Positions 29,009 to 58,509 of a DNA stretch of 64,000 nucleotides are shown piece by piece. Both the position numbers and the translations under genes were made by a program. The DNA is taken from NCBI GenBank assembly GCA_012212665.1, contig GCA_012212665.1_4517.1. The stretch is one strand, 5' to 3'. Each line of letters starts with the position of its first letter. The stretch's first letter is position 1. Under the pieces are notes generated by a model, which made no database searches, was not told the DNA's origin, and saw nothing but the letters and a program-made list of their open reading frames with translations. The DNA comes from a phage.

Positions 29009-29377
29009 TTAATTAAATTTGTTTAAACGTTCAATACACTGGACGTAGTTATTCGCGATTTGTTTCTGGGTAGGCTCTTTACCAGTTGTTTCAACATAGC
29101 GAATGAATGCGATTTCAGTAGCCTGTAAGCAATGTTCTTTAACGCGTTGTTCTTTTGACAATGCTACAGTATCAGAGTCACGATAACGTTGAGCATGGGC
29201 ATCAGCTTGAATCATTCGATTACCTACAGTAACCGGGTCTTCTACTTCAACTTTAGGTTGGTTGTACTGTTTAACATTCGGGTTATAAATCAATTGGCCA
29301 ACATTATTAGGGATAAAGCCGTGAGCACCACATCCAGTTAATCCAAATACCATTGCTAAAGCGATTAATTTTTTCAT
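29009..29377 (-). CDS. Putative lipoprotein
   Basis: 122 aa; signal peptide with lipobox LTGC. Confidence 0.5.
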   Translation of the reverse strand: MKKLIALAMVFGLTGCGAHGFIPNNVGQLIYNPNVKQYNQPKVEVEDPVTVGNRMIQADAHAQRYRDSDTVALSKEQRVKEHCLQATEIAFIRYVETTGKEPTQKQIANNYVQCIERLNKFN

Positions 29378-29448
29378 TTCAATTTCCTCTGTAGTTGATA
29401 GAAAGATAGTAACACAGTATGCGGTGCTTGTAAACAGTTATTTTAAAA

Positions 29449-29637
29449 TTATCGAAAATCTGCTTCGAAAACTTTCTCGTCATTAATAAATGCTTTAACT
29501 AATGCATTGTTCACTTCAGCAAGTTGTACCGTAACCCACTCGATTTCTTCGCGATCACCTGATAATATGATATCTTTAGTGAACATCTCGCCGCTTTTAA
29601 ACCAGCCAATAAAAGTAACTTTAGTTAATTTGCTCAT
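29449..29637 (-). CDS. dmd: Dmd antitoxin (inhibitor of host RnlA/LsoA toxins)
   Basis: About 62 aa; matches T4 Dmd (V.F.GWFK...MFTK.I......V....AEVN.ALVKAFI.D.KV.E.D.R). Confidence 0.75.
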   Translation of the reverse strand: MSKLTKVTFIGWFKSGEMFTKDIILSGDREEIEWVTVQLAEVNNALVKAFINDEKVFEADFR

Positions 29638-29951
29638 ATTTCCTCGCAAAATGCCCATTCAGCATGATAAACTGTAGCACCTTTAGTATCATTCATTTGA
29701 ACTACATCTACCGGAGAAATTACTCGATAGAGACGTGGTTCACCTCCATAAGAGCGTGCTGCTCGTCCTGCGTAAATCTTTGCTAAACCGATATCTTCAG
29801 TAAAGAATACACGATTCAAGTTTTTCTTACGTCCGGTTTCAGACAGAACTCCTGTTTCTTCAGGAGGACAAAGCATGTTTTCGATTTTAGCTGAACTACT
29901 TGAACCGTGATAAAAAATCTTAAATTCTGCTTTACAATCGATGGTTTTCAT
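29634..29951 (-). CDS. Hypothetical protein
   Basis: ORF of 105 aa with GGAGAA Shine-Dalgarno. Confidence 0.5.
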   Translation of the reverse strand: MKTIDCKAEFKIFYHGSSSSAKIENMLCPPEETGVLSETGRKKNLNRVFFTEDIGLAKIYAGRAARSYGGEPRLYRVISPVDVVQMNDTKGATVYHAEWAFCEEI

Positions 29952-54926: not shown

Positions 54927-56740
54927 TGGTGTTTAACCCTATGCATTATTTCTTTATTTTTACCGAGATTAAATCCGCGTTCGTTCGGATTTCCCAGATA
55001 GCCGCATGTTCTTCTTATTGTGTTCATCTTTTTAGGATCAGTTTCTCCACAAACTGAACAAACAAATCCATTTTCAGTAGGAGTCATTTCATGGGTACTT
55101 CCGCATGTAAAACATTTATCTACTGGCATATTAACACCAAAATAATCTAAATGCTGTGCAGCATAATCCCATACAGCCTCAAGTCCCTTTAAGTTATTTT
55201 TCATATCAGGAAGTTCAACATAAGAAATGTGACCACCCGTCGCAATGAAATGATATGGCGCTTCACGAGAAATTTTTTCAAACGGAGTGATATTTTCTTC
55301 TACTGAAACGTGGAAACTGTTAGTGTACCATCCTTTATCAGTAACATCCTTTACACTTCCATATTTTTCAGTATCGAGTTTACAGAAACGATAACACAAG
55401 TTTTCAGCAGGAGTAGAATACAAGCTAAAAGCAAATCCGGTTCTTTCTGTCCACTGTTTAAGACGGGCATTCATTTTAGTTAAAATTTCTTGTCCGATAT
55501 CACGACCAACAAGAATATTCAATTCGTGAATACCAATGTATCCTAAGGACACTGAACTTCTGCCGTTTTTAAATAACTCAATTATATCGTCATCGGGTTT
55601 AAGACGAACCCCGAATGCACCTTCTTGGTAAAGAATAGGAGCAACAGTCGCTTTAACTCCTTTTAAGGAACTAATTCTACACATCAATGCTTCAAAACAC
55701 AAATCCATTCGTTCATTGAACAATTCAACAAATTTCTGTTCGTTAAATTGTGTTCCAACATAAGAATCTAACGCAATTCGAGGAAGATTCAGCGTTACAA
55801 CACCAAGATTATTACGTCCATCAAGAATTTCATTACCAGTCGAATCTTTCCATACGCTCAAGAAACTACGGCAACCCATCGGAGAAACAGGAATAGATGA
55901 ACCAGTGATAGCTTTATTATTCTTAACTGAAATAATATCAGGATACATCCTTTTACTTGCACACTCTAGAGCAAGCTGCTTAATATCATAGTTCGGGTCG
56001 TCTTTATAAAGATTAACACCTTCTTCAACGAACATGACAAGCTTAGGAAAAATAGGAGTTATCCCATCACGGCCAAGACCTTTAATACGATTTTTCAGAA
56101 TTGCTTTCTGAATCATTCGCTCGGCCCAGTCAGTTCCCGTACCAAATGTAATCGTTACAAAAGGCGTTTGCCCGTTTGAACTAAAGAGAGTATTTACTTC
56201 ATATTCATAAGCTTGGAATGCATCATATACATCTTTTTCTGTTTTAGATTGAGCATAATTCAGTGCATCAGCGATTTGCCATTTTTCCGCGTCCTCGATA
56301 TGTTTTGCATAGGTGCGTTTAACATAAGGAGAAAGTACTTTATCTACATTCGCAAAAGTCGTTCCGCCGTATTGATGAGAAGCAACTTGCGCAGTAATTT
56401 GTGCCATAATTGCAGTAGCAACACCGATTGATTTAGGTGTTTCAATCTGCGCATTACCAAGCTTAAACCCGTTCTCAAGCATTCCTTTTAAATCTACTAA
56501 ACAGCAATTAGTAAACGGAAGAGCAGGAGAATAATCAATATCGTGGAAATGGATAATTCCGCTTTCATGCGCTTTCATAATAAAAGACGGGACCATATTT
56601 TTGGCAATGTGTTTAGACACAATACCAGCCATAAGGTCCCGTTGAGTTGGAAAAACACGAGAATCTTTATTAGCATTCTCGTTCAAAAGATCTTTATTAG
56701 TTTTACGAATTAATCCTTCAATTTCTTTTTCAATTTTCAT
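54923..56740 (-). CDS. nrdD: Anaerobic ribonucleoside-triphosphate reductase NrdD (intronless)
   Basis: 605 aa continuous ORF; C-terminal zinc ribbon (CFTCGSTH...CSVCG) and glycyl-radical motif RRTCGYLG. Confidence 0.92.
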   Translation of the reverse strand: MKIEKEIEGLIRKTNKDLLNENANKDSRVFPTQRDLMAGIVSKHIAKNMVPSFIMKAHESGIIHFHDIDYSPALPFTNCCLVDLKGMLENGFKLGNAQIETPKSIGVATAIMAQITAQVASHQYGGTTFANVDKVLSPYVKRTYAKHIEDAEKWQIADALNYAQSKTEKDVYDAFQAYEYEVNTLFSSNGQTPFVTITFGTGTDWAERMIQKAILKNRIKGLGRDGITPIFPKLVMFVEEGVNLYKDDPNYDIKQLALECASKRMYPDIISVKNNKAITGSSIPVSPMGCRSFLSVWKDSTGNEILDGRNNLGVVTLNLPRIALDSYVGTQFNEQKFVELFNERMDLCFEALMCRISSLKGVKATVAPILYQEGAFGVRLKPDDDIIELFKNGRSSVSLGYIGIHELNILVGRDIGQEILTKMNARLKQWTERTGFAFSLYSTPAENLCYRFCKLDTEKYGSVKDVTDKGWYTNSFHVSVEENITPFEKISREAPYHFIATGGHISYVELPDMKNNLKGLEAVWDYAAQHLDYFGVNMPVDKCFTCGSTHEMTPTENGFVCSVCGETDPKKMNTIRRTCGYLGNPNERGFNLGKNKEIMHRVKHQ

Positions 56741-57210
56741 TTTAAACTCTTTCTAAGCTGCTTTTTGAATGAAGCTATTAATTGTGTTTTAGTATCAGAT
56801 TCATTATATTCAAATCCTCTTTGAAGCATCTCGGCCATCATTTCATCTTTACCTAGTCTTGAGAACTCTTTAGTTTTGTCTGGAACAAAATTAGGATGGA
56901 TATTATTATCAGAATAATCTTGTTTCAAATAATCAAGAAGAGATTCAAGCCATTCTAGGTAGTCAACGTTTTGACCTTTCAAACCGGAACGGTTGAACTT
57001 ATGCTTCATTTGACCTTCTGCTGCGTTGCACAGATTACAGAGTAATCCACGAACTCTACCGGCTTTTGGCCCATTTAATTCGTGGTCATGGTCAAGATGG
57101 TTACCTTGAACATCAGGGTCTAATTCACGGTGGCAAATAGGACACTTACCGTTCTGTGCATCATAAAATTTTTGTTTTTCTTCTTTATATTTTGCGCCTG
57201 ATAATAACAT
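56737..57210 (-). CDS. 49: Recombination endonuclease VII gp49 (Holliday junction resolvase)
   Basis: 157 aa; near-identical to T4 endo VII (KYKEEKQKFYDAQNGKC.IC.REL.PDVQ.NHLDHDHELNGPKAG.VRGLLCNLCNAAEGQMKHKFNRSGLKGQ). Confidence 0.92.
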   Translation of the reverse strand: MLLSGAKYKEEKQKFYDAQNGKCPICHRELDPDVQGNHLDHDHELNGPKAGRVRGLLCNLCNAAEGQMKHKFNRSGLKGQNVDYLEWLESLLDYLKQDYSDNNIHPNFVPDKTKEFSRLGKDEMMAEMLQRGFEYNESDTKTQLIASFKKQLRKSLK

Positions 57211-57239
57211 GATAAACCCTTACCTTAAATAGATAAGGG

Positions 57240-57247
57240 TATTTATA
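57240..57247 (-). promoter_or_regulatory. Late promoter (TATAAATA) upstream of gene 49
   Basis: Exact TATAAATA on the minus strand about 30 nt upstream of the gene 49 ATG; T4 gene 49 is known to have a late promoter. Confidence 0.55.
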
Positions 57248-57248
57248 A

Positions 57249-57428
57249 TTTAGTAAACGTTATAAAAGTCTCGATGGAAACGCTTATACTGTCGAATCAT
57301 TCTTTTAGTAGGACGAGTTTCTGAAATAATTGAAGTCCTCATATTTGGATTGTTTGGGGCCCCAATCATAATAAATTTCCAGGATTTTTGCCCATTTTTT
57401 CTTTCACCATAAAATAATTCAGTTTTCA
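57249..57428 (-). CDS. Small basic protein (59 aa), paralogue of 57854..58051
   Basis: Unannotated ORF; C-terminus SETRPTKRMIRQYKRFHRDFYNVY parallels FTVRPTKRQLRKAKRSHRNFYRGY. Confidence 0.35.
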
Positions 57429-57438
57429 TAATAAACCT

Positions 57439-57852
57439 TTAACTTAAACGTCTTTCTAAATATTCAATGTATTCCGCTGCGGCTTGCATCAGATTACCTT
57501 CATAGCCATCGTTATTTTCTTGTCCAGCTAATTTAGCTAACGCATAAGAAATACGTTCACCTTCGAATTCGCCAAGTCCACCATCACAAACTACTCGGTC
57601 AATTTCTTCGAGTTCATCTATTGAATGGGATTCCCAGAAGCACCAAAGAGAAGTATCACGGTCATAGATGCAAAGTTTCTCACCTGTGTTCAACATCACT
57701 TCGATAATGCCATGGTCGCCATAACCATCTTCGGTAGTAGTACCAATTACCTTGATGATCGTATCTTTCTTTAATTCAGGAAACTTGTCTTGTAGTTCTT
57801 CATCTTCTTTAACAATCTTGAACCATTTACCGCGAGTTTCAGAAATATTCAT
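57439..57852 (-). CDS. Hypothetical acidic protein (pin-region)
   Basis: Start placed at internal Met MNISETRGKWFK; the upstream part of the ORF looks like non-coding read-through. Confidence 0.4.
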   Translation of the reverse strand: MNISETRGKWFKIVKEDEELQDKFPELKKDTIIKVIGTTTEDGYGDHGIIEVMLNTGEKLCIYDRDTSLWCFWESHSIDELEEIDRVVCDGGLGEFEGERISYALAKLAGQENNDGYEGNLMQAAAEYIEYLERRLS

Positions 57853-57853
57853 A

Positions 57854-58051
57854 TCAATATCCTCTATAAAAGTTACGATGAGAACGTTTAGCTTTGCGAA
57901 GCTGACGTTTAGTAGGACGAACTGTAAATGGTTGCCCAGAGAAAAAATTCGGATCGGTTTTAATAAGCAAATACCAATCATGTTTGCCATTTTTTAATAA
58001 ACGGTACAATAATTTAACTTGCATAATAATCTCTTCCAATTTCCATATCAA
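57854..58051 (-). CDS. Small basic protein, paralogue of 57249..57428
   Basis: 65 aa; shared C-terminal RPTKR...R.HR.FY..Y motif. Confidence 0.4.
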   Translation of the reverse strand: MIWKLEEIIMQVKLLYRLLKNGKHDWYLLIKTDPNFFSGQPFTVRPTKRQLRKAKRSHRNFYRGY

Positions 58052-58152
58052 TTAATTCATTTATTGAAGGTTCATCATAACATGGTTCTTCGTCGTTGTA
58101 AACCGTTTCGACGTCTGGCTCGACAGTCTCCCATCGAGCAGAATACCACGGT

Positions 58153-58509
58153 TTAACCCCGGAGTTTATTGAGCTCTTCATAATCAATCCAGGATTCTAG
58201 CCCTGACGGCAGGTCACATTCAATGTTCCACAGAAGCTCTTCAATGGCTTGCAGGCGATTATATTCTTCAACGGTAATGGTAACCATTGGTGCAACCGGT
58301 TCTGCCTTTTTAACAATCATATCGTTCATCAGGATGTAAAGGTCATCACGAACGACAGTGTCGTTCCATCCCCATGATTTGGCTTCGTAAGCTAATGTTG
58401 AAGGTAGCACATTTAAAACTTCAATAATAGTTGGAGCATCAGGACCAAGTTCATTGGCACAAACTTCGTATACATCCTGGAAATCTTTAAGATTTAATGA
58501 ATATGTCAT
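58153..58509 (-). CDS. Hypothetical acidic protein
   Basis: ORF of 118 aa. Confidence 0.5.
   Translation of the reverse strand: MTYSLNLKDFQDVYEVCANELGPDAPTIIEVLNVLPSTLAYEAKSWGWNDTVVRDDLYILMNDMIVKKAEPVAPMVTITVEEYNRLQAIEELLWNIECDLPSGLESWIDYEELNKLRG

What the first reader, a model, noticed from the sequence alone, without database searches (positions are those of the whole stretch)
57249..58051. Pair of small basic paralogous ORFs flanking an acidic gene near gene 49
An unannotated 59-aa ORF (57249..57428) and a 65-aa ORF (57854..58051) share the C-terminal motif RPTKR(M/Q)(I/L)R..KR.HR.FY..Y and bracket the acidic 57439..57852 gene. The arrangement resembles a duplicated small nucleic-acid-binding peptide. 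The late promoter for gene 49 lies just downstream.
Basis: seen in the sequence. Interest (0 to 1): 0.35.

Follow-up and report, generated by a model that had tools for sequence, protein, structure and literature searches.

The report
Two short TifA-like genes flanking pin
The two small basic ORFs either side of the Lon-inhibitor gene pin are real, conserved genes of the TifA family, whose studied members are small phage RNA-binding proteins that disarm a bacterial toxin-antitoxin defence, so this is a new branch of a known kind rather than a new kind.

Summary
On the minus strand of this RB69-like (Mosigvirus) window, a 59-aa ORF (57250-57429) and a 56-aa ORF (57854-58024, ATG start) flank pin (57439-57852), upstream of the gene 49 late promoter. 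The two are paralogs (37% identity, E 7e-12) and are under purifying selection (median dN/dS 0.15 and 0.29).

Both exceed the gathering score of Pfam DUF7279 (PF23945). T4 and RB69 TifA (gp61.4) hit the same model more strongly (72 bits). TifA is an experimentally shown RNA-binding inhibitor of the ToxN toxin.

AlphaFold2 gives both ORFs the fold published for TifA: a three-stranded sheet plus a C-terminal helix.

The two ORFs are shorter than TifA, differ from it and from each other in the target-contacting hairpin, lie at a different locus and are untested.

The locus is a recombination hotspot. Related phages carry every combination of ORF2, pin and ORF1. T4 PinA ends in a fused remnant of such a gene. 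This phage also lacks the canonical tifA next to dmd.

RNA binding is likely. The protein target is unknown.

The parts
57250..57429 (-). ORF1: 59-aa short TifA-like protein (RB69ORF087c type), pI 10.5
   Evidence: ORF. PF23945/DUF7279 at 50.7 bits against a cut-off of 24.5. phrog_3272 at 2.4e-29. AlphaFold2 pLDDT 89, strands 2-9, 15-24, 27-36, helix 42-58. Median dN/dS 0.15.
57253..57315 (-). ORF1 codons 39-59: RPTKRMIRQYKRFHRDFYNVY, the Pro-Thr cap plus amphipathic basic helix (predicted RNA-binding surface)
   Evidence: Invariant R39 P40 T41 K42 R46 K49 R50 H52 R53 F55. Basic residues fall on one helix face. These positions correspond to TifA P53 T54 K55 R56 R59.
57439..57852 (-). pin: 137-aa PinA Lon-protease inhibitor, pI 4.4. 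This is the short form, without the C-terminal tail seen in T4.
   Evidence: PF10465 at 7e-47. phrog_2167. Annotated as pin in relatives.
57854..58024 (-). ORF2: 56-aa short TifA-like protein (RB69ORF089c type), pI 11.1. Its last three codons carry the pin ribosome-binding site.
   Evidence: PF23945 at 54.5 bits. phrog_3272 at 2e-26, aligned from residue 10 of the TTG-extended form. AlphaFold2 pLDDT 80 with the same topology. Median dN/dS 0.29. Sequence.
57857..57919 (-). ORF2 codons 36-56: RPTKRQLRKAKRSHRNFYRGY, the same capped basic helix
   Evidence: (12 of 19 residues identical to RB69 TifA).
57240..57247 (-). TATAAATA late-promoter box for gene 49
   Evidence: Conserved in all aligned relatives.
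57216..57240 (-). 10-bp hairpin whose 3' arm holds the gene 49 Shine-Dalgarno sequence
   Evidence: Centroid -12.9 kcal/mol, z -2.5. Invariant in the alignment. Annotated as 'terminator' in G2285.
56737..57210 (-). Gene 49, endonuclease VII (context)
58014..58187 (-). Gene 49.1 homolog; overlaps the ORF2 start by 11 nt (context)
   Evidence: phrog_2382. RB69 annotation.
29378..29448 (-). dmd-imm.1 junction where RB69 carries canonical tifA (gp61.4). The gene is absent here.

Best explanation
ORF1 and ORF2 are two anciently diverged, expressed genes for short members of the TifA family (Pfam PF23945). [quoted passage not shown] That helix is capped by Pro-Thr and shows an invariant stripe of Lys/Arg to solvent.

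By analogy with T4 and RB69 TifA, the helix binds RNA, and the sheet with its beta2-beta3 hairpin recognises a host protein. [quoted passage not shown] The two copies differ most in that hairpin, so they probably have different targets.

They sit beside pin, whose product blocks the Lon protease. Together they may form a second cluster of anti-toxin-antitoxin genes.

The flanking arrangement is not a functional unit. It is one of several gene combinations produced by recombination at short homologies, including the conserved 3' ends of the two paralogs.

Shown here: paralogy, family membership, predicted fold, conservation of the mutagenesis-defined residues, purifying selection and locus polymorphism. 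Inferred: RNA binding. Speculative: the identity of the target and the anti-defence role.
For: Family membership:
- ORF1 and ORF2 score 50.7 and 54.5 bits on PF23945 (cut-off 24.5). T4-type and RB69 TifA score 72.8 and 72.1 bits on the same model.
- A T4-type TifA hits the ORFs' own PHROG (phrog_3272) at 3.9e-8. The ORFs hit the TifA PHROG (phrog_2375) at 2e-3 and 3e-5.
- A profile-profile comparison of the short family against the eight-member TifA panel of PMC10853763 gives probability 97%, E 1.2e-10, aligning W17 and RPTKR..R..KR.

Fold:
- The models have pLDDT 89 and 80 with beta-beta-beta-alpha topology. The TifA AlphaFold models are described the same way.

Functional residues:
- TifA P53/T54 and K55/R56/R59 are required for RNA binding and ToxN neutralisation. 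The equivalents are P40 T41 K42 R43 R46 in ORF1 and P37 T38 K39 R40 R43 in ORF2. All but the R56 position, which is Lys in part of the family, are invariant across the 15 aligned members, and they lie on one helix face.

Real genes:
- Median dN/dS is 0.15 (81 pairs) and 0.29 (18 pairs).
- Conserved Arg residues use different codons in the two copies (CGT versus AGA).
- The genes are tightly packed with ribosome-binding sites.
- 374 and 406 phage records encode relatives.

Variable hairpin:
- In TifA this loop is the region that varies and contacts ToxN. In the short family the same segment is the least conserved.

Context:
- The canonical tifA is missing from this phage and from 102 of 153 related records. 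In those phages the short genes are the only TifA-family genes I detected, by searches of the 64-kb window only.
Against: - No experiment exists on any member of the short subfamily. None of the ten TifA homologs tested in PMC10853763 is of this type.
- In that study the six homologs outside the T2/T4/T6/RB69 group neutralised none of the ToxN or TenpN toxins tested. Family membership therefore does not predict ToxN inhibition.
- The short proteins lack about 10 N-terminal residues and the C-terminal extension of T4 TifA. Their hairpin sequences are unrelated to TifA's.
- ORF1 is often lost or broken in nature: precise deletion in ST2 and LF82-16, a 3' remnant in NHEP10, frameshifts in O157 typing phages. 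ORF2 is frameshifted in the RB69 reference. Both are therefore dispensable accessory genes.
- Structure searches found no characterised analogue.
Confidence: 0.6

Rival explanations
1. The proteins bind RNA as TifA does, but their role is not anti-defence. They might act as small RNA chaperones or regulators of phage or host transcripts, for example modulating translation of the neighbouring pin or gene 49 messages.
For: The conserved part of the family is the RNA-binding helix. TifA binds RNA, ssDNA and dsDNA without strong sequence preference. One copy always lies directly upstream of the gene 49 late promoter and ribosome-binding-site hairpin. The more distant TifA homologs did not inhibit any toxin tested.
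Against: T4, T2 and T6 regulate gene 49 without such a gene. The gene is lost repeatedly with the promoter and hairpin left intact. The only function shown for the family is toxin inhibition.
Confidence: 0.2
2. The basic peptides work with PinA or Lon, either as partners that bind the acidic PinA or as Lon-directed peptides.
For: They are adjacent to pin on both sides. The charges are opposite (pI 10.5 and 11.1 against 4.4). In T4, T2, T6 and RB32 the 3' end of such a gene is fused in frame to pin.
Against: Each component occurs without the others. OLB35 has ORF2 and no pin. T4 has pin and no full-length copy. G2285 has no ORF2. The fused tail lacks the Pro-Thr-Lys-Arg cap, and T4's has lost two otherwise invariant arginines (MIQQ..HQM), which looks like a decaying remnant. 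The pin in this window has no tail at all.
Confidence: 0.07
3. The ORFs are non-functional: chance reading frames or decaying relics. The conserved motif would then reflect a DNA- or RNA-level element upstream of gene 49.
For: The 3' end of the downstream copy and the intergenic region are highly conserved at the DNA level across genera. Deletions and frameshifts are common.
Against: dN/dS is well below 1. Conserved arginines are encoded by different codons in the two copies. ORF2 keeps the motif although it is not next to the gene 49 promoter. The AlphaFold2 models are confident. Both ORFs belong to a family with proven protein function.
Confidence: 0.03

Closest known systems
TifA (T4 gp61.4 and RB69 gp61.4), the ToxN inhibitory factor: an RNA-binding inhibitor of the type III toxin-antitoxin system ToxIN (PMC9391042, PMC10853763)
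   Same: Same Pfam family (PF23945). Same predicted topology of a three-stranded sheet plus C-terminal helix. Same Pro-Thr cap and K-R-x-x-R-x-x-K-R basic face. Both are small, basic proteins of T-even-like phages.
   Different: 56-59 aa against 70-85 aa, with no N-terminal ~10 residues and no C-terminal extension. The beta2-beta3 hairpin, which is TifA's ToxN-contacting loop, has an unrelated sequence. They fall in a separate PHROG (3272 against 2375). They lie beside pin and gene 49 rather than beside dmd. Two copies are present. Neither activity nor target has been tested.
Distant TifA homologs tested in PMC10853763 (EcS1, vB_EcoM_005, VR7, JS98, PM2, CB4)
   Same: They are divergent family members that keep the PT(K/S)(R/K)Q(I/V)R helix.
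   Different: All are 73-98 aa long forms. They neutralised none of the toxins tested, which shows that targets differ within the family.
Dmd (T4 gp61.5), a protein inhibitor of the RnlA/LsoA toxins
   Same: A small early T-even protein that neutralises an RNase toxin and acts as an antitoxin substitute. A homolog is present in the window at 29449-29658.
   Different: No sequence relationship. It acts by direct binding to the toxin, with no RNA-binding helix (general knowledge; PMC9391042).
PinA (Pfam Inhibitor_I24), the gene between the two ORFs
   Same: In T4, T2, T6 and RB32 the last ~15 residues of PinA are homologous to the end of the short TifA-like helix.
   Different: The PinA body is unrelated and acidic. 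The pin in this window lacks the tail.

Membership tests
TifA family (Pfam PF23945, DUF7279) | Scores above the curated gathering threshold of the family model, the same model that recognises experimentally characterised TifA | tested here: met
   ORF1 50.7 bits and ORF2 54.5 bits against a cut-off of 24.5. T4-type and RB69 TifA score 72.8 and 72.1 bits. hhalign against the TifA panel gives probability 97%, E 1.2e-10.
TifA family (Pfam PF23945, DUF7279) | [quoted passage not shown] | tested here: met
   AlphaFold2: ORF1 has strands 2-9, 15-24, 27-36 and helix 42-58 at pLDDT 89. ORF2 has strands 2-9, 15-24, 27-33 and helix 39-55 at pLDDT 80. Compared with the published description. These are predictions on both sides, and no solved structure exists.
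TifA family (Pfam PF23945, DUF7279) | Pro-Thr helix cap followed by the basic residues equivalent to K55, R56 and R59 | tested here: met
   ORF1 has P40 T41 K42 R43 R46. ORF2 has P37 T38 K39 R40 R43. P, T, K and the R59-equivalent Arg are invariant across 15 members; the R56-equivalent is Arg or Lys.
TifA family (Pfam PF23945, DUF7279) | Binds RNA through the basic helix | not testable with these tools
   Shown only for RB69 and T4 TifA. Inferred here from conserved residues.
TifA in the strict sense (ToxN inhibitor) | Neutralises ToxN and co-precipitates with it | not testable with these tools
   No member of the short subfamily was in the published panels. Distant long homologs failed to inhibit.
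TifA in the strict sense (ToxN inhibitor) | Extended ~20-residue loop around residue 41 that contacts ToxN | tested here: inconclusive
   The equivalent segment exists as the beta2-beta3 hairpin. It is 3 residues shorter and its sequence is unrelated to TifA's. ORF2 keeps an aromatic residue (F28) at the position aligned with T4 F41; this is my reading.
TifA in the strict sense (ToxN inhibitor) | Located in the dmd-tifA operon | tested here: not met
   The ORFs lie beside pin and gene 49. The dmd-adjacent site in this window is empty.

The most novel reading that the evidence does not exclude
The pin region is a second anti-toxin-antitoxin island of T-even-like phages. Under this reading, ORF1 and ORF2 are specialised mini-TifA proteins that each trap a different host RNase toxin on RNA, and PinA blocks Lon-dependent antitoxin turnover. 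In the two-thirds of Mosigviruses that have lost canonical tifA, the short paralogs would supply or replace that protection. The shuffling of ORF2, pin and ORF1 among isolates would then track host defence repertoires.
Probability: 0.3. Interest if true: 0.6.

Novelty: new member of a known kind. Interest (0 to 1): 0.42.

Why it matters
TifA is one of the few phage counter-defence proteins with a worked-out mechanism, and its family is still labelled 'unknown function' in Pfam. This work shows that many T-even-like phages carry one or two further short family members at a separate locus beside the Lon inhibitor. Most RB69-like phages have these but lack the canonical tifA. That gives concrete candidates for new toxin inhibitors and for studying how target specificity is encoded in a 56-residue scaffold.

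The work also explains an odd feature of a classic protein: the C-terminal tail of T4 PinA is a fused remnant of such a gene. The locus offers a clean natural example of gene gain and loss by recombination at short homologies.

Tried and rejected
- **Ribosomal protein L34.** A remembered resemblance of the motif (KR..HGFR) was not supported. A Pfam scan at E up to 10 returned only DUF7279.
- **Large repeat proteins.** The exhaustive profile search returned ankyrin-type and propeller-type proteins with 4-13 weak stretches each. PDB sequence hits to designed propeller 'Bagel' proteins were of the same kind. These are summed matches to a generic beta-hairpin (LY..NGK..WKF), not homology.
- **Structure searches.** The PDB search gave nothing significant (best E 0.78). 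Resemblances to double-stranded-RNA-binding domains and Pur-alpha had TM 0.3-0.44 and are not evidence. BFVD returned only uncharacterised small proteins of other T4-like phages.
- **Other libraries and literature.** PADLOC and NCBIfam gave no hits. A literature search for the DUF and RB69 ORF names found no papers.
- **Further copies in the window.** None were found.
- **IMG/VR scan.** It gave only 12 loci, so the frequencies of the gene arrangements were estimated from evenly spaced rows of one megablast search and are rough.
- **Motif as a DNA-level element.** Rejected on codon usage and dN/dS.
- **Pair and pin as one functional cassette.** Rejected because every sub-combination occurs in nature.

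Full report
**What is there**

The window is an RB69-like T-even phage (Mosigvirus). The segment 56700-58600 is 96-98% identical to ATK47, LF82-41, RB69 and many others. All genes in this stretch read on the minus strand. In order they are:
- nrdC
- a 98-aa and a 118-aa ORF
- gene 49.1 (58014-58187)
- ORF2 (57854-58024)
- pin (57439-57852)
- ORF1 (57250-57429)
- the TATAAATA box (57240-57247)
- a hairpin covering the gene 49 ribosome-binding site (57216-57240)
- gene 49 (56737-57210)
- nrdD

Its ORF2 uses an upstream TTG. The family profiles, the annotations in relatives and a ribosome-binding site all point to the ATG at 58024, giving 56 aa. The genes are tightly packed. The ORF2 stop and the pin start form TGATATG, and the last three ORF2 codons carry the pin ribosome-binding site.

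**Is the pair real?**

The two peptides align end to end at 37% identity, E 7e-12. They are strongly basic (pI 10.5 and 11.1), and the gene between them is acidic (pI 4.4).

Both belong to phrog_3272 (E 2e-29 and 2e-26) and to Pfam DUF7279/PF23945, above its gathering score. Relatives are encoded in 374 and 406 phage records, all T4-like phages of enterobacteria.

A search of 1.84 billion representative proteins found only a handful of true clusters. The long multi-repeat hits in that search are artefacts.

Pairwise dN/dS among the loci I collected has a median of 0.15 for ORF1-type genes (81 pairs) and 0.29 for ORF2-type genes (18 pairs; small counts). Conserved arginines are encoded by CGT in one copy and AGA in the other. 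Selection therefore acts on the protein, not on a DNA element.

The ORFs are not unannotated in relatives. RB69 has ORF087c and a truncated ORF089c.

**What they are**

A distant hit of the family profile in an IMG/VR contig led to the gene next to dmd in a T4-like phage. That protein is phrog_2375, and it also matches phrog_3272 at 3.9e-8.

The gene is T4 61.4, renamed tifA. Its product inhibits the ToxN endoribonuclease of the type III toxin-antitoxin system ToxIN (PMC9391042). It does so as an RNA-binding protein that traps ToxN in a ribonucleoprotein complex (PMC10853763).

T4-type and RB69 TifA score 72.8 and 72.1 bits on the same Pfam model, DUF7279. That 'unknown function' family is therefore the TifA family, and ORF1 and ORF2 are members of it. 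A profile-profile comparison of the short family with the eight-member published TifA panel gives 97% probability, E 1.2e-10.

**Anatomy and likely mechanism**

AlphaFold2 models are confident: pLDDT 89 for ORF1 and 80 for ORF2. Both show three antiparallel strands followed by a C-terminal helix. This matches the published description of the TifA models.

In TifA, P53-T54 cap the helix, and K55, R56 and R59 lie on its exposed face. Alanine substitution of either set abolishes RNA co-purification, ToxN rescue and co-precipitation. ORF1 has P40 T41 K42 R43 R46, and ORF2 has P37 T38 K39 R40 R43. P, T, K and the last Arg are invariant in 15 family members, and the position equivalent to R56 is Arg or Lys. 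K49, R50, H52, R53 and F55 are also invariant.

A helical-wheel calculation puts all the basic residues within a 120-degree arc and the hydrophobic residues opposite. I therefore infer RNA binding through this helix.

In TifA the variable loop around residue 41 contacts ToxN and sets specificity. The aligned segment of the short proteins, the beta2-beta3 hairpin, is the least conserved part of the family. It differs completely between ORF1, ORF2 and TifA. This points to different protein targets.

What those targets are cannot be told from sequence. The six more distant TifA homologs tested so far inhibited none of the toxins tried. No short-form member has been tested.

**The arrangement is a product of recombination**

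Related phages show every combination of the three genes:
- ORF2-pin-ORF1, as in this window: 54 records cover at least 80% of the segment.
- ORF2-pin with ORF1 precisely removed: ST2 and LF82-16, where pin's TAA runs straight into TAATAAATA.
- ORF2-pin with only the last ~30 nt of ORF1 left: NHEP10.
- pin-ORF1 without ORF2: G2285 and RB32.
- ORF2 alone, directly upstream of the gene 49 promoter with no pin: OLB35 and phiE142.

In OLB35 the ORF2 coding sequence switches to the ORF1-type ending (…FYNIY, then the late promoter) exactly at the shared ACTTTTATA. The breakpoint therefore lies in the homologous 3' ends of the two paralogs.

From the evenly spaced rows, I estimate the frequencies among Mosigvirus records at roughly one third for the full arrangement, about 40% for ORF2-pin, and the rest split among the other forms. 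These are rough figures.

ORF1 is closer to its positional counterparts in Tequatrovirus and Dhakavirus (55%) than to ORF2. The duplication is therefore old.

**A by-product: the tail of T4 PinA**

T4 PinA has 161 residues against 137 here. It ends in …SDRMIQQYKRLHQMFYNT, followed directly by the gene 49 promoter.

RB32 carries both that tail on pin and a complete short TifA-like gene ending in …KKMIRQYKRLHRMFYNT. The two DNA segments differ at five positions and then continue identically.

The family profile finds the tail (E 3.6e-5 in my small database; phrog_3272 E 0.006).

The T4, T2 and T6 PinA tail is therefore the fused 3' end of a lost TifA-like gene. It lacks the Pro-Thr-Lys-Arg cap, and in T4 two otherwise invariant arginines have become glutamine.

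**Context at the canonical tifA site**

The window has a dmd homolog (29449-29658) followed after 71 nt by imm.1. RB69 has tifA between them. The tifA-less junction occurs in 102 of 153 matching records. RB69-type TifA occurs in 69 records.

In most RB69-like phages, the short genes beside pin are therefore the only TifA-family genes I could detect. My searches covered only the 64-kb window and the fetched loci.

**Comparison with known systems and verdict**

The ORFs meet the sequence, fold and motif criteria of the TifA family. They do not share its locus or its target-contacting loop, and their activity is untested (see the membership table). They work like TifA in the part that is conserved, the RNA-binding helix. 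Whether they are ToxN inhibitors is open.

I rate this as a new member, in effect a distinct short subfamily, of a known kind. It is of moderate interest. It gives testable anti-defence candidates, and it links pin to the toxin-antitoxin conflict, though by proximity only.

My confidence is about 0.95 in family membership, about 0.7 in RNA binding and about 0.45 in an anti-toxin role.

Noticed in passing
window 29378-29448 (between dmd at 29449-29658 and imm.1 at 29009-29377, minus strand): Canonical tifA (gp61.4) is absent. RB69 has a 70-aa TifA here. The junction looks like a deletion between short homologies at the ends of dmd and tifA. The same tifA-less junction is present in 102 of 153 related records, and RB69-type TifA in 69 records.
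   Followed up: partly
L007 (T4) 2898-2950 and L003 (RB32) 1410-1680: The last ~15 residues of T4, T2 and T6 PinA (MIQQYKRLHQMFYNT) are the in-frame fused 3' end of a short TifA-like gene. RB32 has the tail and the intact gene, with direct repeats (ACTCAAAATTCTTTTTCTGAC and the tail itself) that could mediate the deletion.
   Followed up: yes
L001 (RB69) about 2020-2035, equivalent to window about 57985-57995: The RB69 reference has seven A where the window has six (TTATTAAAAAATGG). This frameshifts ORF2 and explains the 38-aa annotation ORF089c. It could be a real mutation or a sequencing error.
   Followed up: partly
window about 57350-57365 (the GGGGCCCC run in ORF1): In E. coli O157 typing phages 3 and 13, ORF1 matches at 100% amino-acid identity but in two frames. 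Short 29-30 aa products are annotated there (one search hit H31; P0013; P0026). The G4C4 run as the slip site is my guess.
   Followed up: no
window 58153-58509 (-): In this 118-aa ORF, residues 64-118 match phrog_3402, labelled 'antitoxin from a toxin-antitoxin system' (E 2e-32). There is a sub-threshold Pfam hit to T7 gp5.9 RecBCD inhibitor (E 0.016) and no PDB relative. RB69 and RB32 annotate only the short C-terminal part. The basis of the PHROG label is unknown to me.
   Followed up: partly
window 57216-57247 (-): A 10-bp hairpin (-12.9 kcal/mol) starts at the last base of the TATAAATA box and holds the gene 49 Shine-Dalgarno sequence in its 3' arm. From general knowledge of T4 gene 49 regulation, read-through early transcripts would hide the ribosome-binding site while late transcripts would not. 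It is invariant across genera. Phages that have lost ORF1 have TAATAAATA instead of TATAAATA, as does T4.
   Followed up: partly
window 57439-57990 (-): The mechanical 183-aa ORF is pin extended to an upstream ATG that overlaps ORF2 out of frame. The ST2 and NHEP10 records annotate this long form as the protease inhibitor and so omit ORF2.
   Followed up: yes
L004 (Bp7) 1029-2540: In Dhakavirus Bp7 the short TifA-like gene is followed by a homing endonuclease gene. Pin appears split into 58-aa and 101-aa ORFs.
   Followed up: no
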